Source: a virus | Direction: 5' to 3' (one strand) | IMG/VR virus record: IMGVR_UViG_3300045988_049511 | Location: 1-35,763 of that record | DNA: 35,763 bases | Shown: positions 2,347 to 12,517 of the stretch, piece by piece | Layout: each line of letters opens with the position of its first letter | Position numbering within the stretch: position 1 is the first letter of the stretch | The notes under the pieces: model-generated | Database searches by the model: none | The model's input: the letters and a program-made list of their open reading frames with translations, nothing else | What the model was told of the DNA's origin: nothing | Translations under genes and position numbers: made by a program

Positions 2347-2904
2347 TCACTTGTTAGCTATTCGATTGATATTTGCGACAATACTTATGATGAATATTGC
2401 GGCGAACACAACAAACACAAATGTCGGATTGATCCAGTCGGCCGCAACCGCTACGACGAGGAATATCATCAACCCCACAACGATAACCCCTCCGACCGTG
2501 AGCTGCATATCTTTTCGGTCCTTCTCGTGCTGCGCTTTCAACTTCTCGGTCTCTGATCGGAGGCGCACGATCTCCGCATCGCGGCGTGCTACCTCGGCCA
2601 TTTGCCGGGATATTTCCTTTTGCGCATTCTCCAGCGCACGCGCATACTGGGTCTTCAGTCGTTCGATCTCCGCCGCCATGCCGTTGATCCCGCTGTCAGC
2701 CGTTCTTCGGCTCCTTCTACGCGTTTTACCCGGGTTAGCGATATCATTGTAGGCTTCGTTCACCCGTTTGATCAGATCGTCGAAAAATGGGTCTCCGTCG
2801 TGTTTGTCCGGATGGAGCTTGCTGACGTACATTTTGTACGCCTTCTTCACCTCTTCCAGGGTCGCATCCGGTGTCAGCCCCAATATTTCGTACGGGTCCG
2901 TCAT
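2347..2904 (-). CDS. J-domain (DnaJ-like) protein with coiled coil and C-terminal membrane anchor
   Basis: 185 aa. DPYEILGL...KKAYK...LHPDK is a canonical J domain with the HPD tripeptide. A basic linker follows, then a heptad-like ERLKTQYARALENAQKEI...KLKAQHEKDRK segment, then two hydrophobic helices (VGGVIVVGLMIFLVVAVAA and FVFVVFAAIFIISIVA). Confidence 0.85.
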   Translation of the reverse strand: MTDPYEILGLTPDATLEEVKKAYKMYVSKLHPDKHDGDPFFDDLIKRVNEAYNDIANPGKTRRRSRRTADSGINGMAAEIERLKTQYARALENAQKEISRQMAEVARRDAEIVRLRSETEKLKAQHEKDRKDMQLTVGGVIVVGLMIFLVVAVAADWINPTFVFVVFAAIFIISIVANINRIANK

Positions 2905-2905
2905 T

Positions 2906-3553
2906 TTACAGTTGTCGGCGGTTCAGCTTTCCTTTGACCAAAAATATCTTCAGTACGTCGTTGCGCGGGACAATCGTGTCGCCGGCATACTTCGGGTTTG
3001 TCGCCCGAAGTATGAAGTTTTGCCGGTCCTCCGACAAATATACGTTTTTTATCGTTCGGAGATTATCGCAGGCGGCATTCGTGATGACGAGATACGGCTC
3101 GCCCCAAAGCATCGAATCGACATTGCGAATCTCTCGGACGAGAATCACCTCTCCGGGGTAGAAGTCCGGGACCATGCTGTCGCCGTATACGGGGAATGCG
3201 GCGTCGCAGTCGTTCAGTGGCGGAAAGTTGATATAGTATTGCACCTCTTCGCGCACGTCGTGAAACGACTCCGTTATGGATGCCGTCACATCCATGTCAT
3301 AATAAGGTATTCCCTTCCCGTCTGACGCATTATTCTCCGATTTAGTCATCTCTCCTCGTCCGGTTAGAATCCAATCCGGACTTGTGTCGAAGTATTTTGC
3401 AAGTAATTCTATTGTGCTGCTGCTTGGCTTTGCCGTTGAATTATTGATAATTCGGCTCATTGTCGCCTGCGACACACCTGTATGCATCGAAACAATATAA
3501 GGAGTAACGCCTTTATATTCAAGCAGTTTTTTTATTCTTTCACCTATACACAT
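2906..3553 (-). CDS. cI: CI-like repressor: XRE-type HTH plus S24 (LexA-like) autopeptidase domain
   Basis: 215 aa. The N-terminal HTH is IVSMHTGVSQATMSRIINN. The C-terminal part has GDSMVPDFYPGEVILV (S24 Ser motif) and a downstream VKGK. It is divergent from the early operon. Confidence 0.88.
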   Translation of the reverse strand: MCIGERIKKLLEYKGVTPYIVSMHTGVSQATMSRIINNSTAKPSSSTIELLAKYFDTSPDWILTGRGEMTKSENNASDGKGIPYYDMDVTASITESFHDVREEVQYYINFPPLNDCDAAFPVYGDSMVPDFYPGEVILVREIRNVDSMLWGEPYLVITNAACDNLRTIKNVYLSEDRQNFILRATNPKYAGDTIVPRNDVLKIFLVKGKLNRRQL

Positions 3554-3687: not shown

Positions 3688-3912
3688 ATGCAATATCCGC
3701 GATCGAAATCATTCAACAAGGGCCTGCGCGAGGTTGCATACGGCAAGCATAAGGAGTTGAAGGCTGCGCTTATGAAAGCAATCGGAATCGCCTCCGAGCC
3801 AATATGGCGCAAGTACCGTGACGGCCAGACGAAATACCTCGACGTAGACGTCGCCCGTCGCATCGAAGAGACGTTTGCCGCATTTGGCGTGAAGAATCCC
3901 TGGGGAGAGTAG
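3688..3912 (+). CDS. Small early protein, Cro-like by position (putative DNA-binding)
   Basis: 74 aa. It is the first gene of the rightward operon, divergent from cI. The function is positional inference only. Confidence 0.6.
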   Translation: MQYPRSKSFNKGLREVAYGKHKELKAALMKAIGIASEPIWRKYRDGQTKYLDVDVARRIEETFAAFGVKNPWGE

Positions 3913-3914
3913 CC

Positions 3915-4295
3915 ATGAAGACGGATTCCATACTCTCAAAGGCCGAGGCACGCGTATCGCGTGGGTACGTGGAGGGATTGAGCGGCAAGGAGATCGCCGA
4001 CCGTCTATGCATATCGTACAACACGGTGATCCGCCACACGCAGAATATCTACGAGAAGATCGGCCGGCACTCCATTCACGGGCTGGTGGCGTGGTGGTTC
4101 TGCGCGAACTTCGACATTGAGCTGGAAGAGATAATCCGTCGCATCGGGGCCGCCTGCCTGCTGGGTTTGTTCTGCGCTTACACCTTCGGAGGCGGGGATT
4201 TTGAGCGAACGGCACGCCGGGCACGACGCAGTCGCCGGGAAGTTGAATATGTAATCGGAGGACAGGATTATGATAGCATTGAATTCGACGAATGA
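3915..4295 (+). CDS. LuxR/GerE-type HTH regulator with a hydrophobic C-terminal segment
   Basis: LSKAEARV...GLSGKEIADRLCISYNTVIRHTQNIYEKIG matches the LuxR C-terminal HTH pattern. It is followed by IGAACLLGLFCAYTF. Confidence 0.8.
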   Translation: MKTDSILSKAEARVSRGYVEGLSGKEIADRLCISYNTVIRHTQNIYEKIGRHSIHGLVAWWFCANFDIELEEIIRRIGAACLLGLFCAYTFGGGDFERTARRARRSRREVEYVIGGQDYDSIEFDE

Positions 4296-4572
4296 CATAC
4301 TTGCCGAGAATATGGCACTGAAAGAGCAGCTTGACCGGGCCCTTCGGATCATGGCGAACCATCCGCTTACGGTAGCCGAGACGTGCGAGGCGTTGAAGAT
4401 CAACCGCGACACCGTGAGAGACTATCTGAAACGCGGGATCCTGCGACGGCATCCTAAGTCCACCAGCGGCCGGGTTTTGATATTCGGCGACGAGGTGGTG
4501 ACGCACACGAAAAAGGATCTGCGCCGGATCAAGAGATGCAAGAAATGGGGAATCAATCCAGACACGATATGA
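4270..4572 (+). CDS. Excisionase-like (MerR/Xis-type) HTH protein
   Basis: 100 aa. LTVAETCEALKINRDTVRDYLKRGIL is a typical HTH_17/Xis-like helix-turn-helix. The start is uncertain (4270 or 4312). Confidence 0.6.
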   Translation: MIALNSTNDILAENMALKEQLDRALRIMANHPLTVAETCEALKINRDTVRDYLKRGILRRHPKSTSGRVLIFGDEVVTHTKKDLRRIKRCKKWGINPDTI

Positions 4573-4724
4573 CAATGACAGAACGCAGGCCCTATCATGG
4601 GGTCGAATTCCAGGTCTACGACCTGACGCCGGAGGAGGCATACCGGCAGAGCCTCCGGGACTACAAGACCAGCCGCAAAGGCATCATCAAATGCGCGATA
4701 AAGCGGTGGTTGGGGATAAAATAG
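4569..4724 (+). CDS. Small hypothetical protein (51 aa)
   Basis: ATGA start/stop overlap with the preceding gene at 4569-4572. No recognisable motif. Confidence 0.45.
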   Translation: MTMTERRPYHGVEFQVYDLTPEEAYRQSLRDYKTSRKGIIKCAIKRWLGIK

Positions 4725-5195
4725 CAATCCGGGTGCGTGGTGGAACAATGAGATACACGGGAATCTGAAGCGGTCGAACGCAAAAGGACTGGTCGAAATC
4801 GTAGAGAGGTTGAAAACCCTCGTACCGGTCGCCCAAAACCGCATGGCAGGGATGCCGATCGGGTAATAAGTTCAAGAGACGTAACGTCGTTCCCCGATCA
4901 ATCGACAATGAAAGCGTTGCAGGTGCAAGTCCTGCCGCACCCTCAAATAGCCACCCTTCGAGGTGAGGGGTCTTTCGCTGGCAATAACCCCACAGCAAAG
5001 CGATGCGGCAGTTCTTTGACATTGTGGCGATCGTCTGAAACGACGTTAAACCCGGAGACCGACTTGGCGGCGACCGGGCGGGCAACCGACAAATACCAAT
5101 CATCGAGCGATGATGCGGAGCGATCCGCGGAGCCGAAACGACTTACCCGGTGTGGCTTGACCGCCTATCCGGGTGCAAACCAAAACTACAAGGAT
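4725..5195 (+). ncRNA. ORF-less, GC-rich 470-nt block with many local hairpins; candidate structured RNA or long leader (unclassified)
   Basis: Only very short ATG ORFs lie in the plus frames before 5196 (6, 7, 11 and 16 codons found by hand; the 4908 frame is treated separately). Hairpins seen: GATCGGG/CCCGATC (4857-4863 / 4894-4900) enclosing GACG-taa-CGTC; GCAGG/CCTGC (4919-4935); TCGCT/AGCGA (4974-5003); CCCGG/CCGGG (5051-5077); GCGGA/TCCGC (5115-5128); ACCCGG/CCGGGT (5145-5174). Confidence 0.3.
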
Positions 5196-5426
5196 ATGGT
5201 ACGAAACCCACAACGCGAGATCCTCGCCTACCTGCTGGCGGGCGGTAGGCTGACGGTACAGAAGGCATCGCGGCTGTTCGAAACTACCGAGTTGCGGAAG
5301 ATCGTCAGTCGGCTGCGACGCCTCGGGCAGCCGATCGAGGACGTCAAGCACTACGACACTACCCGTACGGGACGACGTGTTCAGTTCAAGGAATACTTCA
5401 TGAGGGCTTCAGGCTCCCGTAAATAG
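5196..5426 (+). CDS. Small winged-helix/HTH-like DNA-binding protein
   Basis: The 76-aa version starts at MVRNPQREILAYLLAGGRLTVQKASRLFETTELRKIVSRLRRLG. The upstream 96 codons of the 4908 ORF are Ser/Thr/Arg/Gly-rich and not protein-like. Confidence 0.6.
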   Translation: MVRNPQREILAYLLAGGRLTVQKASRLFETTELRKIVSRLRRLGQPIEDVKHYDTTRTGRRVQFKEYFMRASGSRK

Positions 5427-5496
5427 CCGGACACACATCACACACTTCCTTTCAGGTTAGACCATCACGCCGCCATCCGTGAGGCCCGCGGCGGTT

Positions 5497-5536
5497 CCGC
5501 CCCAATCTTGCCCGGCAGGGCGCCGGGGCGGTTTTT
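5497..5536 (+). terminator. Terminator-like hairpin plus T5, ending at the base before the tRNA-like element
   Basis: CCGCCCC (5497-5503) pairs with GGGGCGG (5525-5531), followed by TTTTT (5532-5536). Confidence 0.5.
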
Positions 5537-5621
5537 GGAGGATTGGCAGAGTGGCTGAATGCACATCACCGCTAACGAGGCAGGCGGCAACGCCTCGGGG
5601 GTTCGAATCCCTCACCCTCCG
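5537..5621 (+). tRNA. Class-II (long variable arm) tRNA-like element, Ser(GCU)-like but with a defective anticodon arm; possible pseudo-tRNA
   Basis: Acceptor GGAGGAT/ACCCTCC pairs 6 of 7 (one A-C). D arm is GCA-GAGTGGCTGAA-TGC. The variable hairpin is GGCG-GCAA-CGCC. The T arm is GGGGG-TTCGAAT-CCCTC. The anticodon arm CATCA-CCGCTAA-CGAGG pairs only 3 of 5, and position 33 is C rather than U. No CCA is encoded. Confidence 0.5.
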
Positions 5622-5751
5622 CAAACCCTTTTGGATTGGTGTTGGCAAGTAGGACGACGATGACGTATGGGATTTACGCATTAGGATATGCGGTGGCAAA
5701 GCGGAAAAGACGCTTGACTTCATCGGACAGATAACGCGAAAGCCAATGGCG

Positions 5752-5771
5752 GCCCGGAAAGACGGGCTTTT
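5752..5771 (+). terminator. Terminator-like hairpin plus T-run abutting tRNA-Gln
   Basis: GCCCG-GAAAGA-CGGGC (5752-5767) followed by a T run (5768-5772). The last T is base 1 of the tRNA. Confidence 0.5.
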
Positions 5772-5842
5772 TGATCCTTGGTGTAACGGTAGCACCGCAG
5801 ACTTTGGTTCTGCTGGCCCCGGTTCGAATCCGGGAGGGTCAA
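5772..5842 (+). tRNA. tRNA-Gln (anticodon UUG)
   Basis: Folded by hand. Acceptor TGATCCT/AGGGTCA (U1-A72, one G-U). D arm GTGT-AACGGTA-GCAC. Anticodon arm GCAGA-CTTTGGT-TCTGC. T arm CCCGG-TTCGAAT-CCGGG. Discriminator A. Confidence 0.9.
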
Positions 5843-5862
5843 CAACTCAACACCAACAGACT

Positions 5863-6024
5863 ATGGACGCATACAAGAACAAGCGCGGCGAGCAGTTGAA
5901 GCCGCTGAATGTGGGGCCGCACACGTGGCTCCTGGTATCACCCGACAAGGCGACGAAGGAACGCGCCAACAAGTTCAAGCGCGACTGCGAACGGTCGCAA
6001 AGGATGGCGAAGAATATCCGGTAG
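5863..6024 (+). CDS. Small basic hypothetical protein (53 aa)
   Basis: This is the first ATG downstream of tRNA-Gln in the 5746 frame. The longer ORF would overlap the tRNA. Confidence 0.5.
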   Translation: MDAYKNKRGEQLKPLNVGPHTWLLVSPDKATKERANKFKRDCERSQRMAKNIR

Positions 6025-6025
6025 T

Positions 6026-6340
6026 ATGAAAGGGTACAGGTTCAAAGACGAGATCGTGGAGCTACGGGACGGGGCGCACCGGGTGTGCGACCTGTCGGTA
6101 TTCTCCCCAAACGAATGTGTTAGGGTTGGCAAATACCGAATATATCCATACCCGTATATGTCTGATGTCAAAGCCATTGCAAAAGAACTGGCAAAAGAGA
6201 TAGGCATCAAGCTGCTTTCCGATGGCATTCTTAAAGTCGAAAGGCGTCCCGATTGCGTAATCGTGACGATGGAGAACATCCTCCTGCCCGACATTGACAC
6301 CGAGCGATTTGTGAAAAATAATTTTGCCAATTCAAAATGA
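6026..6340 (+). CDS. Hypothetical protein (104 aa)
   Basis: ATG at 6026, 1 nt after the preceding stop. The composition from MKGYRFKDEIVELRDG is protein-like. Confidence 0.6.
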   Translation: MKGYRFKDEIVELRDGAHRVCDLSVFSPNECVRVGKYRIYPYPYMSDVKAIAKELAKEIGIKLLSDGILKVERRPDCVIVTMENILLPDIDTERFVKNNFANSK

Positions 6341-11340: not shown

Positions 11341-11693
11341 GACACATCGAATCGAATATTCAGAAGTCGTTCGTCACGTGGTTCCGGCTGCAGTTCCCGG
11401 AATATGCGCTGAACCTGACGAGCGTCCCCAACGGCGGCCTTCGCGGTAAACGTGAAGCCGGAATACTCAAAGCCGAAGGAATGACGGCCGGAGCTGCCGA
11501 TCTCCTGCTCCTGGTTCCGAGGGGCGGATATGGTGCCCTGGGCATCGAGTTCAAGACTACGGAGAAGAGCAGCCGCCAAAGCCCGGCGCAGAAGCGTTGG
11601 CAGGAGGCGTTCGAGAAGGCCGGGAACAAATACGCCATTGCGCGGACCTTTGACGAGGCCGTGGAGGTGGTGAAAAACTATCTGCAGGTATGA
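11337..11693 (+). CDS. VRR-NUC domain nuclease
   Basis: GAADLLLLVP...GIEFKT...SPAQKRWQE matches the VRR-NUC D...ExK...Q..W pattern. ATGA overlap with the upstream gene. Confidence 0.8.
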   Translation: MRHIESNIQKSFVTWFRLQFPEYALNLTSVPNGGLRGKREAGILKAEGMTAGAADLLLLVPRGGYGALGIEFKTTEKSSRQSPAQKRWQEAFEKAGNKYAIARTFDEAVEVVKNYLQV

Positions 11694-12517
11694 GCGATCT
11701 CGATAGGAAAATCAAACAGAGCATCCGACTACTCCAACACTTAGGAGATACGGAGGTCGAGTTGAGCTATTCGGGAGGGAAGGACAGCGATGTTATCCTT
11801 GCGCTGGCTAAGATGGCCGGGATCAACTATCGGGCCATTTACAAGAACACGACTATCGACCCTCCCGGAACCGTAGCCCACTGCAAGGATAACGGCGTGG
11901 AAATAGTGAAGCCAGTTCATACTTTTTTCGAATTGATTCAGCGCAAAGGATTCCCTACCCGTCGTGCTCGGTTCTGCTGCGATAAGTTAAAGGAATACAA
12001 GATACTCGACAACTCTATTCAAGGCATAAGAAGGTCAGAAAGTACCAAGCGGGCGGAGTTATATAAAGAGCCGATAATGTGTCGCATCTATGGGTCGAAG
12101 AAAAACCACGTCAATGTGTTTCTTCCTATCCTGGAATGGACTGACGAAGATGTTAAAAACTTCATAACTCACTACGGCATCAAGTGTCACCCGCTATACT
12201 ACGATGAGAACGGCAAGTTTTGCGTAAACAGACGGCTCGGGTGTATGGGGTGCCCTCTTGCATCCGATAACGGGCTCTCTGACTTCAGAAAATATCCTAA
12301 ACTCGTTCGTCAATGGATTAGAAATGGGATAATATGGTGGAATAGAGAAAGAGAAGGAGAGCTTAAAAGTAAAAAAAAATTTTCCAACATATACGAACTG
12401 TTTATGCAGAATGTGTTCTTCGACAGCTACCAGGAGTTCGCATTGGCCCGAGACGGGATGTTCGGGCGCATGAACTGCAAAGAAAGGCTGGAGGATTATT
12501 TTGGAATTGAGCTATGA
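11690..12517 (+). CDS. PAPS reductase / PP-loop ATPase family protein
   Basis: The SYSGGKDS PP-loop motif lies near the N-terminus. Downstream cysteines are CCDKLKE and CMGCP. The gene looks AT-richer than its neighbours by eye. Confidence 0.8.
   Translation: MSDLDRKIKQSIRLLQHLGDTEVELSYSGGKDSDVILALAKMAGINYRAIYKNTTIDPPGTVAHCKDNGVEIVKPVHTFFELIQRKGFPTRRARFCCDKLKEYKILDNSIQGIRRSESTKRAELYKEPIMCRIYGSKKNHVNVFLPILEWTDEDVKNFITHYGIKCHPLYYDENGKFCVNRRLGCMGCPLASDNGLSDFRKYPKLVRQWIRNGIIWWNREREGELKSKKKFSNIYELFMQNVFFDSYQEFALARDGMFGRMNCKERLEDYFGIEL

What the first reader, a model, noticed from the sequence alone, without database searches (positions are those of the whole stretch)
4725..5195. 470-nt ORF-less, hairpin-dense block upstream of the tRNA cluster; candidate large structured RNA
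In a genome where most genes abut or overlap, 470 nt between the stop at 4724 and the ATG at 5196 contain only very short ATG ORFs (6-16 codons). The exception is the 4908 frame, whose first 96 codons look non-protein-like. The block is GC-rich and full of 5-7-bp stems (listed in the feature entry). An identical 10-mer ATCCGGGTGC sits at each edge (4727-4736 and 5167-5176). Two tRNA-type genes follow within about 350 nt. Large ornate phage RNAs such as GOLLD and ROOL are known to sit near tRNA genes in prophages, but I cannot assign this sequence to any known class by eye. Alternatives are a long regulatory leader for the wHTH gene or an inserted element, since 10-bp flanking repeats are compatible with a target duplication.
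Basis: partly seen in the sequence, partly recalled or inferred. Interest (0 to 1): 0.68.

Follow-up and report, generated by a model that had tools for sequence, protein, structure and literature searches.

The report
Oversized tRNA-like RNA in gut phage
The gene-free block in this temperate Bacteroidales phage holds a 213-base RNA built on a leucine-tRNA frame with a large folded domain where the anticodon and variable arms should be, followed by about 250 bases of conserved non-coding sequence; relatives of this RNA are common in human-gut phages and are in no RNA family database.

Summary
The 471-nt ORF-less gap (4725-5195) is real. It is not GC-rich, not unusually stable, and its 10-mer repeat is within chance. 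It is not one ornate RNA but a mosaic.

1. Positions 4731-4943 (+) are a tRNA-like RNA with a 7-bp acceptor stem, a tRNA-Leu-type D-arm, a T-arm, and a roughly 130-nt multi-helix core. Thirteen distinct homologues pair in 98.7% of cells, and 9 pairs show compensatory changes.
2. Positions 4944-5195 are a sequence-conserved trailer built of shuffled modules, ending in a hairpin (5146-5173) that also occurs, letter for letter, in Bacteroides prophages.

Closely related phages carry different tRNA-like elements in the same slot. Low-GC gut phages reuse the same frame with at least five unrelated cores of 144-254 nt. One relative is annotated "tRNA-His/tRNA-Undet" in Bacteroides phage LoVEphage.

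Rfam 15 has no match (no GOLLD, ROOL, tmRNA or group I intron). Protein coding and a target-site-duplication insertion are both rejected.

The likely mechanism is inferred, not shown. The RNA would be co-transcribed with the early lytic operon and cut out by the tRNA-processing enzymes. The frame would give processing and stability, and the core would be the working part. The function is unknown.

The parts
4731..4943 (+). tRNA-like RNA: 212 nt plus discriminator T4943. It has a tRNA-Leu-type frame with a large core in place of the anticodon and variable arms.
   Evidence: In alignment A2 (13 distinct homologues), 46 pairs are 98.7% paired and 9 have compensatory changes, against 0-2 in slid controls. 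CM R1 gives a single hit in the window, 4730-4944, at 209 bits. ARAGORN calls it only in intron mode at a lowered threshold.
4731..4737 (+). Acceptor stem, 5' strand GGGTGCG. It pairs with 4936-4942 (CGCACCC).
   Evidence: Helix 1: 7 pairs, 100% paired, 2 pairs with changes on both sides (G-C<->A-U).
4740..4758 (+). D-arm: stem 4740-4742/4756-4758, loop GAACAATGAGATA, tRNA-Leu type.
   Evidence: Helix 2 (U-A<->C-G). The same acceptor, D-arm and T-arm signature picks only tRNA-Leu among tRNA-sized sequences, 5 of 5.
4759..4776 (+). Joining region with the conserved UGAAGC (4766-4771). GAAT 4761-4764 can pair with GTTC 4889-4892, as a pseudoknot or a vestigial anticodon stem.
   Evidence: Helix 3: 100% paired, with one-sided changes only, so the pairing is plausible but not proven.
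4777..4918 (+). Core domain. It is closed by AACGC 4777-4781 / GCGTT 4914-4918, which directly abuts the T-arm. Inside are helices 4787-4793/4824-4830, 4845-4848/4853-4856, 4857-4863/4893-4899 and 4878-4881/4885-4888.
   Evidence: Helices 4-8. Compensatory changes are seen in four of the five (one pair each in helices 4, 5 and 8, three pairs in helix 7); helix 6 is invariant.
4919..4935 (+). T-arm GCAGG-TGCAAGT-CCTGC, with G at the position that is normally U55.
   Evidence: Invariant. The same 17-mer is found in at least 120 IMG/VR contigs. By eye it serves as the T-arm of ordinary-looking phage tRNAs and of the tRNA-like family.
4944..5012 (+). Trailer module A (CAAATAGCCACCC...). It is present after five different tRNA-like elements in relatives.
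   Evidence: Sequence is highly conserved. There is only one clear compensatory event (L004, CCAT/ATGG), so the structure is inconclusive.
5013..5143 (+). Trailer module B. It is almost invariant among relatives and is replaced by an unrelated module B' in L001, L008 and L039.
   Evidence: Substitutions fall mostly in predicted hairpin loops (positions). B' in relatives has 4 covarying pairs among 5 sequences.
5146..5173 (+). Conserved hairpin CCCGGTGTGGCTTGACCGCCTATCCGGG. It contains the right-hand copy of the 10-mer.
   Evidence: Its 17-nt core (GGTGTGGCTTGACCGCC) is present in 34 fetched loci. The 20-mer CCCGGTGTGGCTTGACCGCC is also found in Bacteroides and Phocaeicola genomes. There it lies upstream of, not after, a tRNA-like element.
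5177..5195 (+). A-rich leader directly before ATG 5196 of the winged-HTH gene.
   Evidence: Sequence. Pfam HTH_39, E=3.9e-4.
5537..5622 (+). tRNA-Ser(GCT), same strand.
   Evidence: The 3' flank G|CAAACC resembles the flank T|CAAATA of the tRNA-like RNA.
5772..5843 (+). tRNA-Gln(TTG), same strand.
   Evidence: The 3' flank is A|CAACTC.

Best explanation
The block is a non-coding RNA locus inside the early lytic operon of a temperate Bacteroidales phage.

Its 5' half (4731-4943) is a tRNA-like RNA derived from a class II leucine tRNA. The acceptor stem, D-arm and T-arm are kept. The anticodon arm is reduced to a short conserved segment (UGAAGC). A multi-helix core of about 130 nt grows from the position of the long variable arm.

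Proposed mechanism (inferred):
- The RNA is transcribed with the upstream regulator genes; it starts 6 nt after their last stop codon.
- It folds into a tRNA-like L-shape.
- It is cut out by RNase P at the 5' end and by the tRNA 3'-end machinery, like the two true tRNAs downstream.

This would do two things. It would release a stable, trans-acting RNA whose frame gives processing and protection and whose core is the working part (target unknown; a host protein or a defence factor is the best guess). It would also cut the operon transcript, so that the 250-nt trailer (4944-5195) becomes the structured 5' leader of the winged-HTH mRNA.

Shown: the structure, the strand, the absence of coding, the modularity, and the spread of the family.

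Inferred: transcription, processing, stability, and any function.
For: Structure:
- 13 distinct homologues give 46 pairs that are 98.7% paired. Nine pairs have changes on both sides, against 0-2 in slid controls.
- 23 G-U cells would be A-C on the other strand, which fixes the + strand.

tRNA-Leu frame:
- The frame signature selects only tRNA-Leu among tRNA-sized hits, 5 of 5.
- CM R1, built from the element, also scores true tRNA-Leu genes, for example L201 3667-3753 at 32 bits.
- D-loop GG and T-loop U55 change together: 6 of 6 G55 combinations lack GG, and 9 of 10 U55 combinations have it.

Not coding:
- Every frame of the L219 and L252 homologues has stop codons.
- Trailer substitutions fall 15/16/13 over the three codon positions.

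Modularity:
- The same slot, 6-8 nt after the upstream stop codon, holds five different tRNA-like elements in close relatives.
- The same frame carries at least five unrelated cores of 144-254 nt in low-GC gut phages: 86 occurrences and 41 distinct sequences of 98 nt or more.

Context:
- No promoter-like or terminator-like site lies inside the block. The first terminator-like hairpin with a T-run is at 5511-5527.
- The 3' flank N|CA(A/T)AA is shared with the window's own tRNAs.
- Integrase, a CI/S24 repressor and early regulators define the setting.
Against: - There is no expression or processing data.
- Thermodynamic stability is not above shuffled controls.
- Covariation rests on only three or four sequence lineages.
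- The T-loop has G at position 55 and the D-loop lacks GG, so a canonical tRNA elbow is not assured.
- The discriminator base is not conserved and no CCA is encoded.
- The conserved cores argue that a generic 'processing signal' is not the whole story, and I cannot name a target.
- Structure in trailer modules A and B is not demonstrated in this window's lineage.
Confidence: 0.6

Rival explanations
1. It is a true tRNA gene (Leu or Phe) interrupted by an intron that is spliced out to give a decoding tRNA.
For: - ARAGORN in intron mode calls 4731-4944 as tRNA-Phe(GAA) with a 117-nt intron at a 95% threshold.
- The homologous element of LoVEphage is annotated as a two-piece 'tRNA-His/tRNA-Undet' in GenBank.
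- The loop CUGAAGC has U33 and a purine at position 37.
Against: - Nothing is called at default thresholds.
- The anticodon called differs between homologues: GAA in the window, GAG in L039, GTG in LoVEphage.
- No group I or group II intron model matches at E<=10, and 117 nt is too short for a group I intron (own knowledge).
- Covarying helices join the 'intron' to the 'exon' (P-long and helix 7).
- In other core types the segment after the D-arm cannot form a 5-bp anticodon stem at the right distance.
Confidence: 0.08
2. The block, or at least 4944-5195, is a cis-acting leader (attenuator or riboswitch-like) that controls the gene that follows.
For: - The trailer ends 20 nt before ATG 5196.
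- In L008 and L039 the alternative trailer B' ends in a hairpin with a T-run just before the wHTH homologue, the classic aptamer-plus-terminator layout.
- In L003 and L005 the same trailer precedes a different gene.
- B' has 4 covarying pairs.
Against: - No known riboswitch or leader model matches.
- The window's version has no terminator-like site.
- The tRNA-like part occurs without the trailer and without the wHTH gene (L010, L155, L219, L251-L264).
- The hairpin module lies upstream of tRNA-like elements in low-GC phages.
Confidence: 0.2
3. The tRNA-like RNA is an anti-defence decoy. It would soak up host enzymes or toxins that recognise the acceptor and T-arm body of tRNAs, without entering translation.
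For: - It is early-expressed and sits next to the immunity region.
- The slot is hypervariable between close relatives.
- The frame is conserved while cores are swapped.
- Phage tRNAs that counter tRNA-targeting defences are a known theme (own knowledge).
Against: - A simple decoy would not need a conserved, covarying 130-nt core.
- No defence partner is identified.
- This is a special case of the best explanation rather than a true alternative.
Confidence: 0.15
4. It is a mobile insertion bounded by a 10-bp target-site duplication.
For: An identical 10-mer lies at both edges.
Against: - Repeats of this length occur in 12% of shuffles and in 28% of real windows.
- The right copy lies inside a hairpin that is conserved in phages and prophages lacking this element.
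- The left copy is the acceptor-stem edge and is absent where other tRNA-like elements fill the slot.
- No relative has an empty site. The deletions seen (L010, L278-L280) run from 4945 to about 6960 instead.
- No transposase or recombinase is encoded in the block.
Confidence: 0.02
5. It encodes a protein: the N-terminal extension from ATG 4908, or a minus-strand ORF.
For: ORFs 4908-5426 (+), 4687-5103 (-) and 4422-4844 (-) are open in the window.
Against: - Homologues have stop codons in all six frames (L219, L252) and indels of 20 nt.
- There is no third-position bias (15/16/13).
- The 4908 extension is broken by module replacement in L001, L008 and L039 and by a gene insertion in L003 and L005.
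Confidence: 0.02

Closest known systems
Class II tRNA-Leu
   Same: 7-bp acceptor stem. U8. A 3-bp D-stem with a GGCGGAA...AGACGC-type D-arm. A 5-bp T-stem with a 7-nt T-loop stacked on the acceptor. A long extra arm emerging just 5' of the T-arm. The same kind of 3' flank as the phage's own tRNAs.
   Different: 213 nt instead of about 85. There is no 5-bp anticodon stem with a decodable loop. The extra arm is a branched domain of about 130 nt. It has G55 and no G18G19, the discriminator is variable, and tRNA finders and RF00005 do not call it.
T4 RNAC / RNAD (small stable RNAs from the T4 tRNA region)
   Same: Phage-encoded, non-decoding small RNAs transcribed with or next to a tRNA cluster. 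Their roles are still unknown (PMC3014915, PMC9697503).
   Different: No sequence relation was tested or expected. They come from a lytic coliphage, not a temperate Bacteroidales phage. I did not test whether the T4 RNAs share a tRNA-Leu frame.
tmRNA tRNA-like domain
   Same: An acceptor stem plus T-arm close a much larger RNA whose body replaces the anticodon arm.
   Different: G3-C70 instead of the alanine-identity G3-U70. No tag reading frame. It has a D-stem. ARAGORN's tmRNA search is negative. It is shorter, and its core is swapped between relatives.
Viral tRNA-like processing handles (murine gammaherpesvirus 68 tRNA-miRNA units; MALAT1 mascRNA) and the engineered 'tRNA scaffold' for expressing RNAs (own knowledge)
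   Same: A tRNA-like fold recruits RNase P or RNase Z to cut an RNA out of a longer transcript and to stabilise a passenger RNA. Sequence downstream of the tRNA-like unit is released by the same cut.
   Different: Those are eukaryotic or artificial. Here the passenger sits inside the tRNA frame, as in the engineered scaffold. It is natural and bacterial-viral, and it has not been tested experimentally.
Bacterial Y-RNA-like YrlA (PMC4201824)
   Same: A non-coding RNA that mimics the tRNA acceptor, T-arm and D-arm, sometimes phage-encoded.
   Different: In YrlA the 5' and 3' ends lie in the Ro-binding stem at the anticodon side (own knowledge of that paper). Here they form the acceptor stem. There is no Rfam match and no Rsr gene in the window.
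GenBank feature 'tRNA-His / tRNA-Undet' (two-piece) in Bacteroides phage LoVEphage, MW660583.1 29237-29439
   Same: A member of the same frame family: tRNA-Leu-type D-arm, T-arm, acceptor, a core of about 100 nt, and the same upstream hairpin.
   Different: It has a different core and a canonical T-loop. The annotation as an intron-containing tRNA is an automatic call. The describing paper only counts 'nine tRNA genes' (PMC8525569).

Membership tests
tRNA (Rfam RF00005 / canonical cloverleaf) | 7-bp acceptor stem joining the 5' and 3' ends | tested here: met
   helix 1: 100% paired, 2 compensatory pairs.
tRNA (Rfam RF00005 / canonical cloverleaf) | T-arm (5 bp plus 7-nt loop) directly 5' of the acceptor 3' strand, and a D-arm after N8-N9 | tested here: met
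   helices 2 and 9. The T-loop is UGCAAGU (G55), and the D-loop lacks GG.
tRNA (Rfam RF00005 / canonical cloverleaf) | Anticodon arm (5 bp plus 7-nt loop) at a fixed distance, giving a consistent anticodon | tested here: not met
   No call at default settings. Forced calls give GAA, GAG or GTG in homologues.
tRNA (Rfam RF00005 / canonical cloverleaf) | Match to the tRNA covariance model at the gathering score; length about 70-95 nt | tested here: not met
   No RF00005 hit on 4731-4943 even at E<=10. The element is 213 nt.
tmRNA | tRNA-like domain with G3-U70, plus an internal tag reading frame | tested here: not met
   G3-C70 in the sequence. ARAGORN -m is negative at 90% threshold. No Rfam tmRNA hit.
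Group I intron in tRNA-Leu | Group I catalytic core; insertion in the anticodon loop; exons that rejoin to a normal tRNA | tested here: not met
   No Intron_gpI hit at E<=10. The insert is 117-130 nt. Helices bridge the 'intron' and 'exon'.
GOLLD / ROOL and other large ornate RNAs in Rfam | Match to the family covariance model | tested here: not met
   No hit at the gathering score or at E<=10 in the window or in L039 and L148.
UG27 reverse-transcriptase ncRNA arrays of Bacteroidota prophages (bioRxiv 10.64898/2026.09.22.753630) | Adjacent reverse transcriptase plus two accessory proteins; hairpin units of about 150 nt | tested here: not met
   No reverse-transcriptase domain in any of the 39 ORFs scanned in the window. 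The units here are tRNA-like, not a single interrupted hairpin.
Transposable insertion with target-site duplication | Empty site in relatives bounded by one repeat copy; repeat beyond chance | tested here: not met
Phage stable RNAs of tRNA clusters (T4 RNAC/RNAD type) | A discrete stable transcript processed from a tRNA-cluster transcript | not testable with these tools
   Only the location is shown: same strand, 594 nt upstream of tRNA-Ser.
New family proposed here: tRNA-Leu-frame RNAs with an expanded core | 7-bp acceptor, N2, G(C/T)G-RAA...-C(A/G)C D-arm, a core of 20-180 nt closed by a helix abutting the T-arm, a T-arm, then N|CA(A/T)AA | tested here: met
   The window element fits. There are 86 occurrences and 41 distinct sequences among the fetched loci.

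The most novel reading that the evidence does not exclude
Temperate phages of gut Bacteroidales may use a leucine-tRNA-derived chassis as a natural 'tRNA scaffold'. On this reading, one conserved frame (acceptor, D-arm, T-arm) is processed by the host tRNA machinery. It carries interchangeable structured payload domains of 20-180 nt that act in trans on the host, for example against tRNA-directed or other defences. Payloads would be swapped between phages much as protein domains are. The same cut would also punctuate the early operon mRNA.
Probability: 0.3. Interest if true: 0.8.

Novelty: new variant of a known kind. Interest (0 to 1): 0.62.

Why it matters
tRNA mimicry is known in plant viruses, in tmRNA, in Y RNAs and in a few eukaryotic transcripts. 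I found no description of a widespread phage family in which one tRNA frame carries many different large cores, either in Rfam 15 or in the searchable literature.

Members sit in very common human-gut phages. LoVEphage is reported in about 8% of 1,241 viromes (PMC12629997). Automatic annotation either misses these elements or labels them as odd intron-containing tRNAs.

If the RNAs are processed and stable, they would be:
- a new class of phage effectors or operon punctuation marks in the dominant gut phylum;
- a natural precedent for the engineered tRNA scaffold;
- a source of error in counts of phage tRNA genes.

Cultured hosts and inducible prophages exist, so the question can be tested directly.

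Tried and rejected
- **Rfam.** I ran the gathering threshold on the whole window and permissive scans on 4500-5900 and 4725-5200, and also scanned L039, L148 and ten further loci. Only the two tRNAs matched, plus unrelated families elsewhere.
- **GenBank phages.** blastn with 4000-6100 matched only tRNAs. The low-GC element matched two unannotated records.
- **Genome collection.** A scan with a window-type motif found nothing.
- **Antisense targets.** Complementary 12-mers between the block and the rest of the window occur at the chance level: 4 hits against about 2 expected (the expectation is my own estimate).
- **tmRNA, group I intron and cobalamin-riboswitch look-alikes.** GGTGCAAGTCC resembles T-loop hairpins of several RNAs, but none is supported by any model.
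- **UG27 reverse-transcriptase arrays.** There is no reverse transcriptase in the window.
- **Homology between the window-type core and the low-GC cores.** CM R1 scores the low-GC elements at 29-60 bits, but true tRNAs reach 25-34 bits through the frame alone. Core homology is therefore unproven.
- **Trailer module A.** I tested two alternative pairings: with the acceptor 3' strand, or with a downstream CCCC. There is too little variation to decide.
- **Automated search for the core-closing helix.** It was unreliable for types b, e and f.
- **Supplements of the 10,006-csRNA catalogue (PMC10690425).** They are not held, so I could not check whether these elements are listed there.

Full report
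**1. The observation**

The upstream 62-codon ORF ends at 4724 and the winged-HTH ORF (Pfam HTH_39, E=3.9e-4) begins at 5196. This leaves 471 nt without a plausible gene, in an early operon whose other junctions are 2, -26 and -37 nt. ATG ORFs inside are 6-16 codons, plus the 4908 frame. The 10-mer ATCCGGGTGC occurs at 4727 and 5167 only. tRNA-Ser and tRNA-Gln follow on the same strand.

Three descriptive claims do not hold.
- The block is not GC-rich: 55.4% against 54.9% for the window.
- It does not fold better than shuffled sequence: z = -0.61 for the whole block, -1.28 and -0.97 for its two halves.
- A 10-nt direct repeat within 471 nt is ordinary: it occurs in 12% of shuffles and in 43 of 151 real windows of this genome.

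**2. Setting**

The window is a temperate phage. It has an integrase (217-1491, -), a CI-type repressor with an S24 peptidase domain (2906-3553, -) and a divergent + strand early operon. That operon contains a small ORF, a LuxR/GerE protein, an HTH_17 protein, the 62-aa ORF, this block, the wHTH gene and the tRNAs. Replication and recombination genes, terminase, portal and protease follow.

The closest cultured phages by large terminase infect Bacteroides and Phocaeicola, at 44% identity. No promoter-like or terminator-like site lies inside the block. The first terminator-like hairpins with T-runs are at 5511-5527 and 5751-5768. The block is therefore most simply part of the early transcript; this is an inference.

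**3. The block is a mosaic**

Relatives were fetched through the flanking proteins and through DNA motifs. They show that the block breaks into separable pieces.

- 4731-4943 is present at 97-99% identity in L002 and L010, and in diverged form in L039, L169, L219 and L251-L264.
- In other close relatives (L001, L003/5, L004, L006/7/8) the same slot, 6-8 nt after the upstream stop codon, holds quite different sequences.
- 4944-5012 (module A) follows all of these alternatives.
- 5013-5143 (module B) is nearly invariant where present, but L001, L008 and L039 have an unrelated module B'.
- 5146-5173 is a hairpin shared by both versions.
- L010, L155, L219 and L251-L264 have the first element with no trailer and no wHTH gene.
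- L009 has no block at all.

**4. The first element is tRNA-like**

Positions 4731-4737 (GGGTGCG) pair with 4936-4942 (CGCACCC). Immediately before the latter lies GCAGG-TGCAAGT-CCTGC (4919-4935), a T-arm. After TG comes a D-arm (4740-4758).

Every alternative element in the slot also has a complementary 7-nt pair of ends and a T-arm. L001, L004 and L006 fold as cloverleaves with over-long central arms.

I aligned 13 distinct window-type sequences (A2) and tested a hand-derived structure of 46 pairs in 9 helices.
- 98.7% of cells are paired, against 33-47% when partners are slid.
- 9 pairs carry changes on both sides, against 0-2 when slid.
- Compensatory changes occur in the acceptor stem, the D-stem, the core-closing helix and three inner helices.
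- 23 cells are G-U, which would be A-C on the other strand. The RNA is therefore read from the + strand.

The sequences come from only three or four lineages, so this is good but not overwhelming evidence.

**5. It is not a decoding tRNA, a tmRNA or an intron-bearing tRNA**

- RF00005 and ARAGORN at default settings do not call it.
- Forced intron-mode calls give different anticodons in homologues.
- The tmRNA search is negative, and position 3-70 is G-C.
- No intron, riboswitch, GOLLD, ROOL or Y-RNA model matches, even at E<=10.
- Covarying helices tie the supposed intron to the supposed exon.

**6. It is not coding**

The L219 and L252 homologues have stop codons in all six frames, and homologues differ by about 20 nt of indels. 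Trailer substitutions fall 15/16/13 over the codon positions of the 4908 frame.

**7. A wider family on a leucine-tRNA frame**

The T-arm 17-mer occurs in at least 120 IMG/VR contigs. Many of these are low-GC human-gut phages. They carry the same architecture: acceptor GGTGGTA/TACCACC, D-arm TGGCGGAA...AGACGC, the same T-arm, and then N|CATAAAT. The cores are unrelated and the total lengths are 144, 155, 208-212, 220 and 252-254 nt.

A simple structural scan of all held loci found 86 occurrences (41 distinct sequences) of 98-254 nt. It also found five tRNA-sized sequences, all of which ARAGORN calls tRNA-Leu. CM R1, built from the window type, also scores true tRNA-Leu genes through the frame. 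This is why I call the frame tRNA-Leu-derived.

In the window type, and in types a, c and d, the core is closed by a helix that abuts the T-arm. That is where the long variable arm of class II tRNAs emerges. A short conserved segment (UGAAGC) sits where the anticodon arm would be.

D-loop GG and T-loop U55 change together: 6 of 6 against 9 of 10 distinct combinations. This suggests that an elbow contact is either kept or lost as a unit.

One core (type b) occurs on three different frame variants. L176 has several units in tandem beside a tRNA.

**8. Link to cultured phages**

The hairpin of 5146-5173 is letter-identical in Bacteroides and Phocaeicola genomes. There it lies about 110 nt upstream of another frame-family member.

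That region is 99.7% identical to Bacteroides phage LoVEphage, where the element is annotated as a two-piece 'tRNA-His / tRNA-Undet'. The describing paper only counts nine tRNA genes (PMC8525569). LoVEphage-type prophages are inducible from cultured hosts and are common in viromes (PMC12629997).

**9. The trailer**

Module A is strongly conserved in sequence. Its GGTG-AGGG segment can pair either with the acceptor 3' end plus a CACC, or with a downstream CCCC. L004 has a matching CCAT/ATGG change that favours the first pairing, but this is a single event.

Module B varies almost only in predicted loops. Module B' of relatives has four covarying pairs and, in L008 and L039, ends in a terminator-like hairpin before the wHTH gene.

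The trailer therefore probably acts as RNA too. It may be the leader of the next gene, but this is not shown for the window.

**10. Interpretation**

What is shown: a + strand, non-coding, tRNA-like structured RNA with a swappable core, and a modular conserved trailer.

What I infer: co-transcription with the early operon, and excision by RNase P and the tRNA 3'-end enzymes. The shared N|CAA flank with the window's own tRNAs and the constant 6-8-nt distance from the upstream stop codon point that way. The result would be a stable RNA whose frame is a handle and whose core is the effector. The cut would also separate the upstream regulator mRNA from the wHTH mRNA.

The target of the core is unknown. 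A host protein or a defence factor is a guess. The rivals are scored in their own sections: a spliced tRNA, a pure cis-leader, a decoy, an insertion, and a protein.

**11. Novelty**

I found no Rfam family and no description in the searchable literature. A 2023 catalogue of 10,006 candidate viral RNAs mentions tRNA-like candidates, but its lists were not available to me. T4 RNAC and RNAD are the nearest phage precedent, and their roles are also unknown.

I rate this as a new variant of a known kind, namely tRNA mimicry and tRNA-cluster stable RNAs.

Noticed in passing
window 5495-5535 and 5751-5772: Each of the two true tRNAs is directly preceded by a GC-rich hairpin plus a T-run (terminator-like). 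Either the tRNAs are reached by read-through or they have their own starts. A weak sX4 sRNA match spans 5522-5650.
   Followed up: partly
window 5537-5622: tRNA-Ser(GCT) scores only 32.8 bits (gathering score 29), with several non-canonical pairs in the acceptor and anticodon stems. It may be a degenerate or unusual tRNA.
   Followed up: no
L004 ~4030-4600, L006 ~3730-4600, also L007, L008, L046, L221: Relatives carry an extra gene between the 62-aa ORF and the tRNA-like slot. It is made largely of tandem 33-nt repeats (…ACCTCGACGATCAACGCCAAGAGCTGGGGC…), and the copy number differs between phages.
   Followed up: no
L176 8699-9280: A tandem array in a low-GC gut phage: an odd tRNA (ARAGORN 'tRNA-???' with a 2-nt anticodon), then a 145-nt tRNA-like unit, further structured sequence, and a 155-nt unit.
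   Followed up: partly
L270 (Phocaeicola MAG), minus strand, position 2896 of the reverse complement, 103 nt: A tRNA-Leu-frame RNA with what looks like an 8-nt anticodon-type loop and a very long extra arm. ARAGORN does not call it. It shares its frame with the 153-nt type-b element of L274.
   Followed up: no
L253 ~1700-1800 and the slot of L006/L007/L008/L046: A second, unrelated family of tRNA-like RNAs of about 98 nt (…ATAG[CG]G..TAA[AT]CGGATAGG… CACATTA, T-loop TTCGACT) occurs in the same phage group.
   Followed up: no
L132, L138, L184, L215, L227, L234, L244 (about 400 nt upstream of the 17-mer): Another long ORF-poor, apparently structured region ends in the same GCAGGTGCAAGTCCTGC hairpin followed by a strong terminator. 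On L132, the only one of these loci scanned, there is no Rfam match. It may be a different large phage RNA.
   Followed up: no
L039 496-568 (-): A c4-2 antisense RNA (Rfam RF02944, 62.7 bits) occurs in a relative's immunity region. There is no such hit in the window.
   Followed up: no
L275-L277 (same phage as the window): The wHTH gene carries a 2-nt deletion (CAACGCGGATCC against CAACGCGAGATCC) that shifts the frame, so gene callers start it later. The gene may be dispensable, or the assemblies may differ.
   Followed up: no
window 2347-2904 (-) and 11690-12517 (+): A DnaJ-domain membrane protein is encoded next to the CI repressor. A PAPS-reductase-family protein sits in the replication module.
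   Followed up: no
L281 2505-2648 (LoVEphage MW660583.1 29085-29228): An annotated 47-aa 'hypothetical protein' overlaps the conserved hairpin and the leader of the tRNA-like element. It is probably a spurious call.
   Followed up: no
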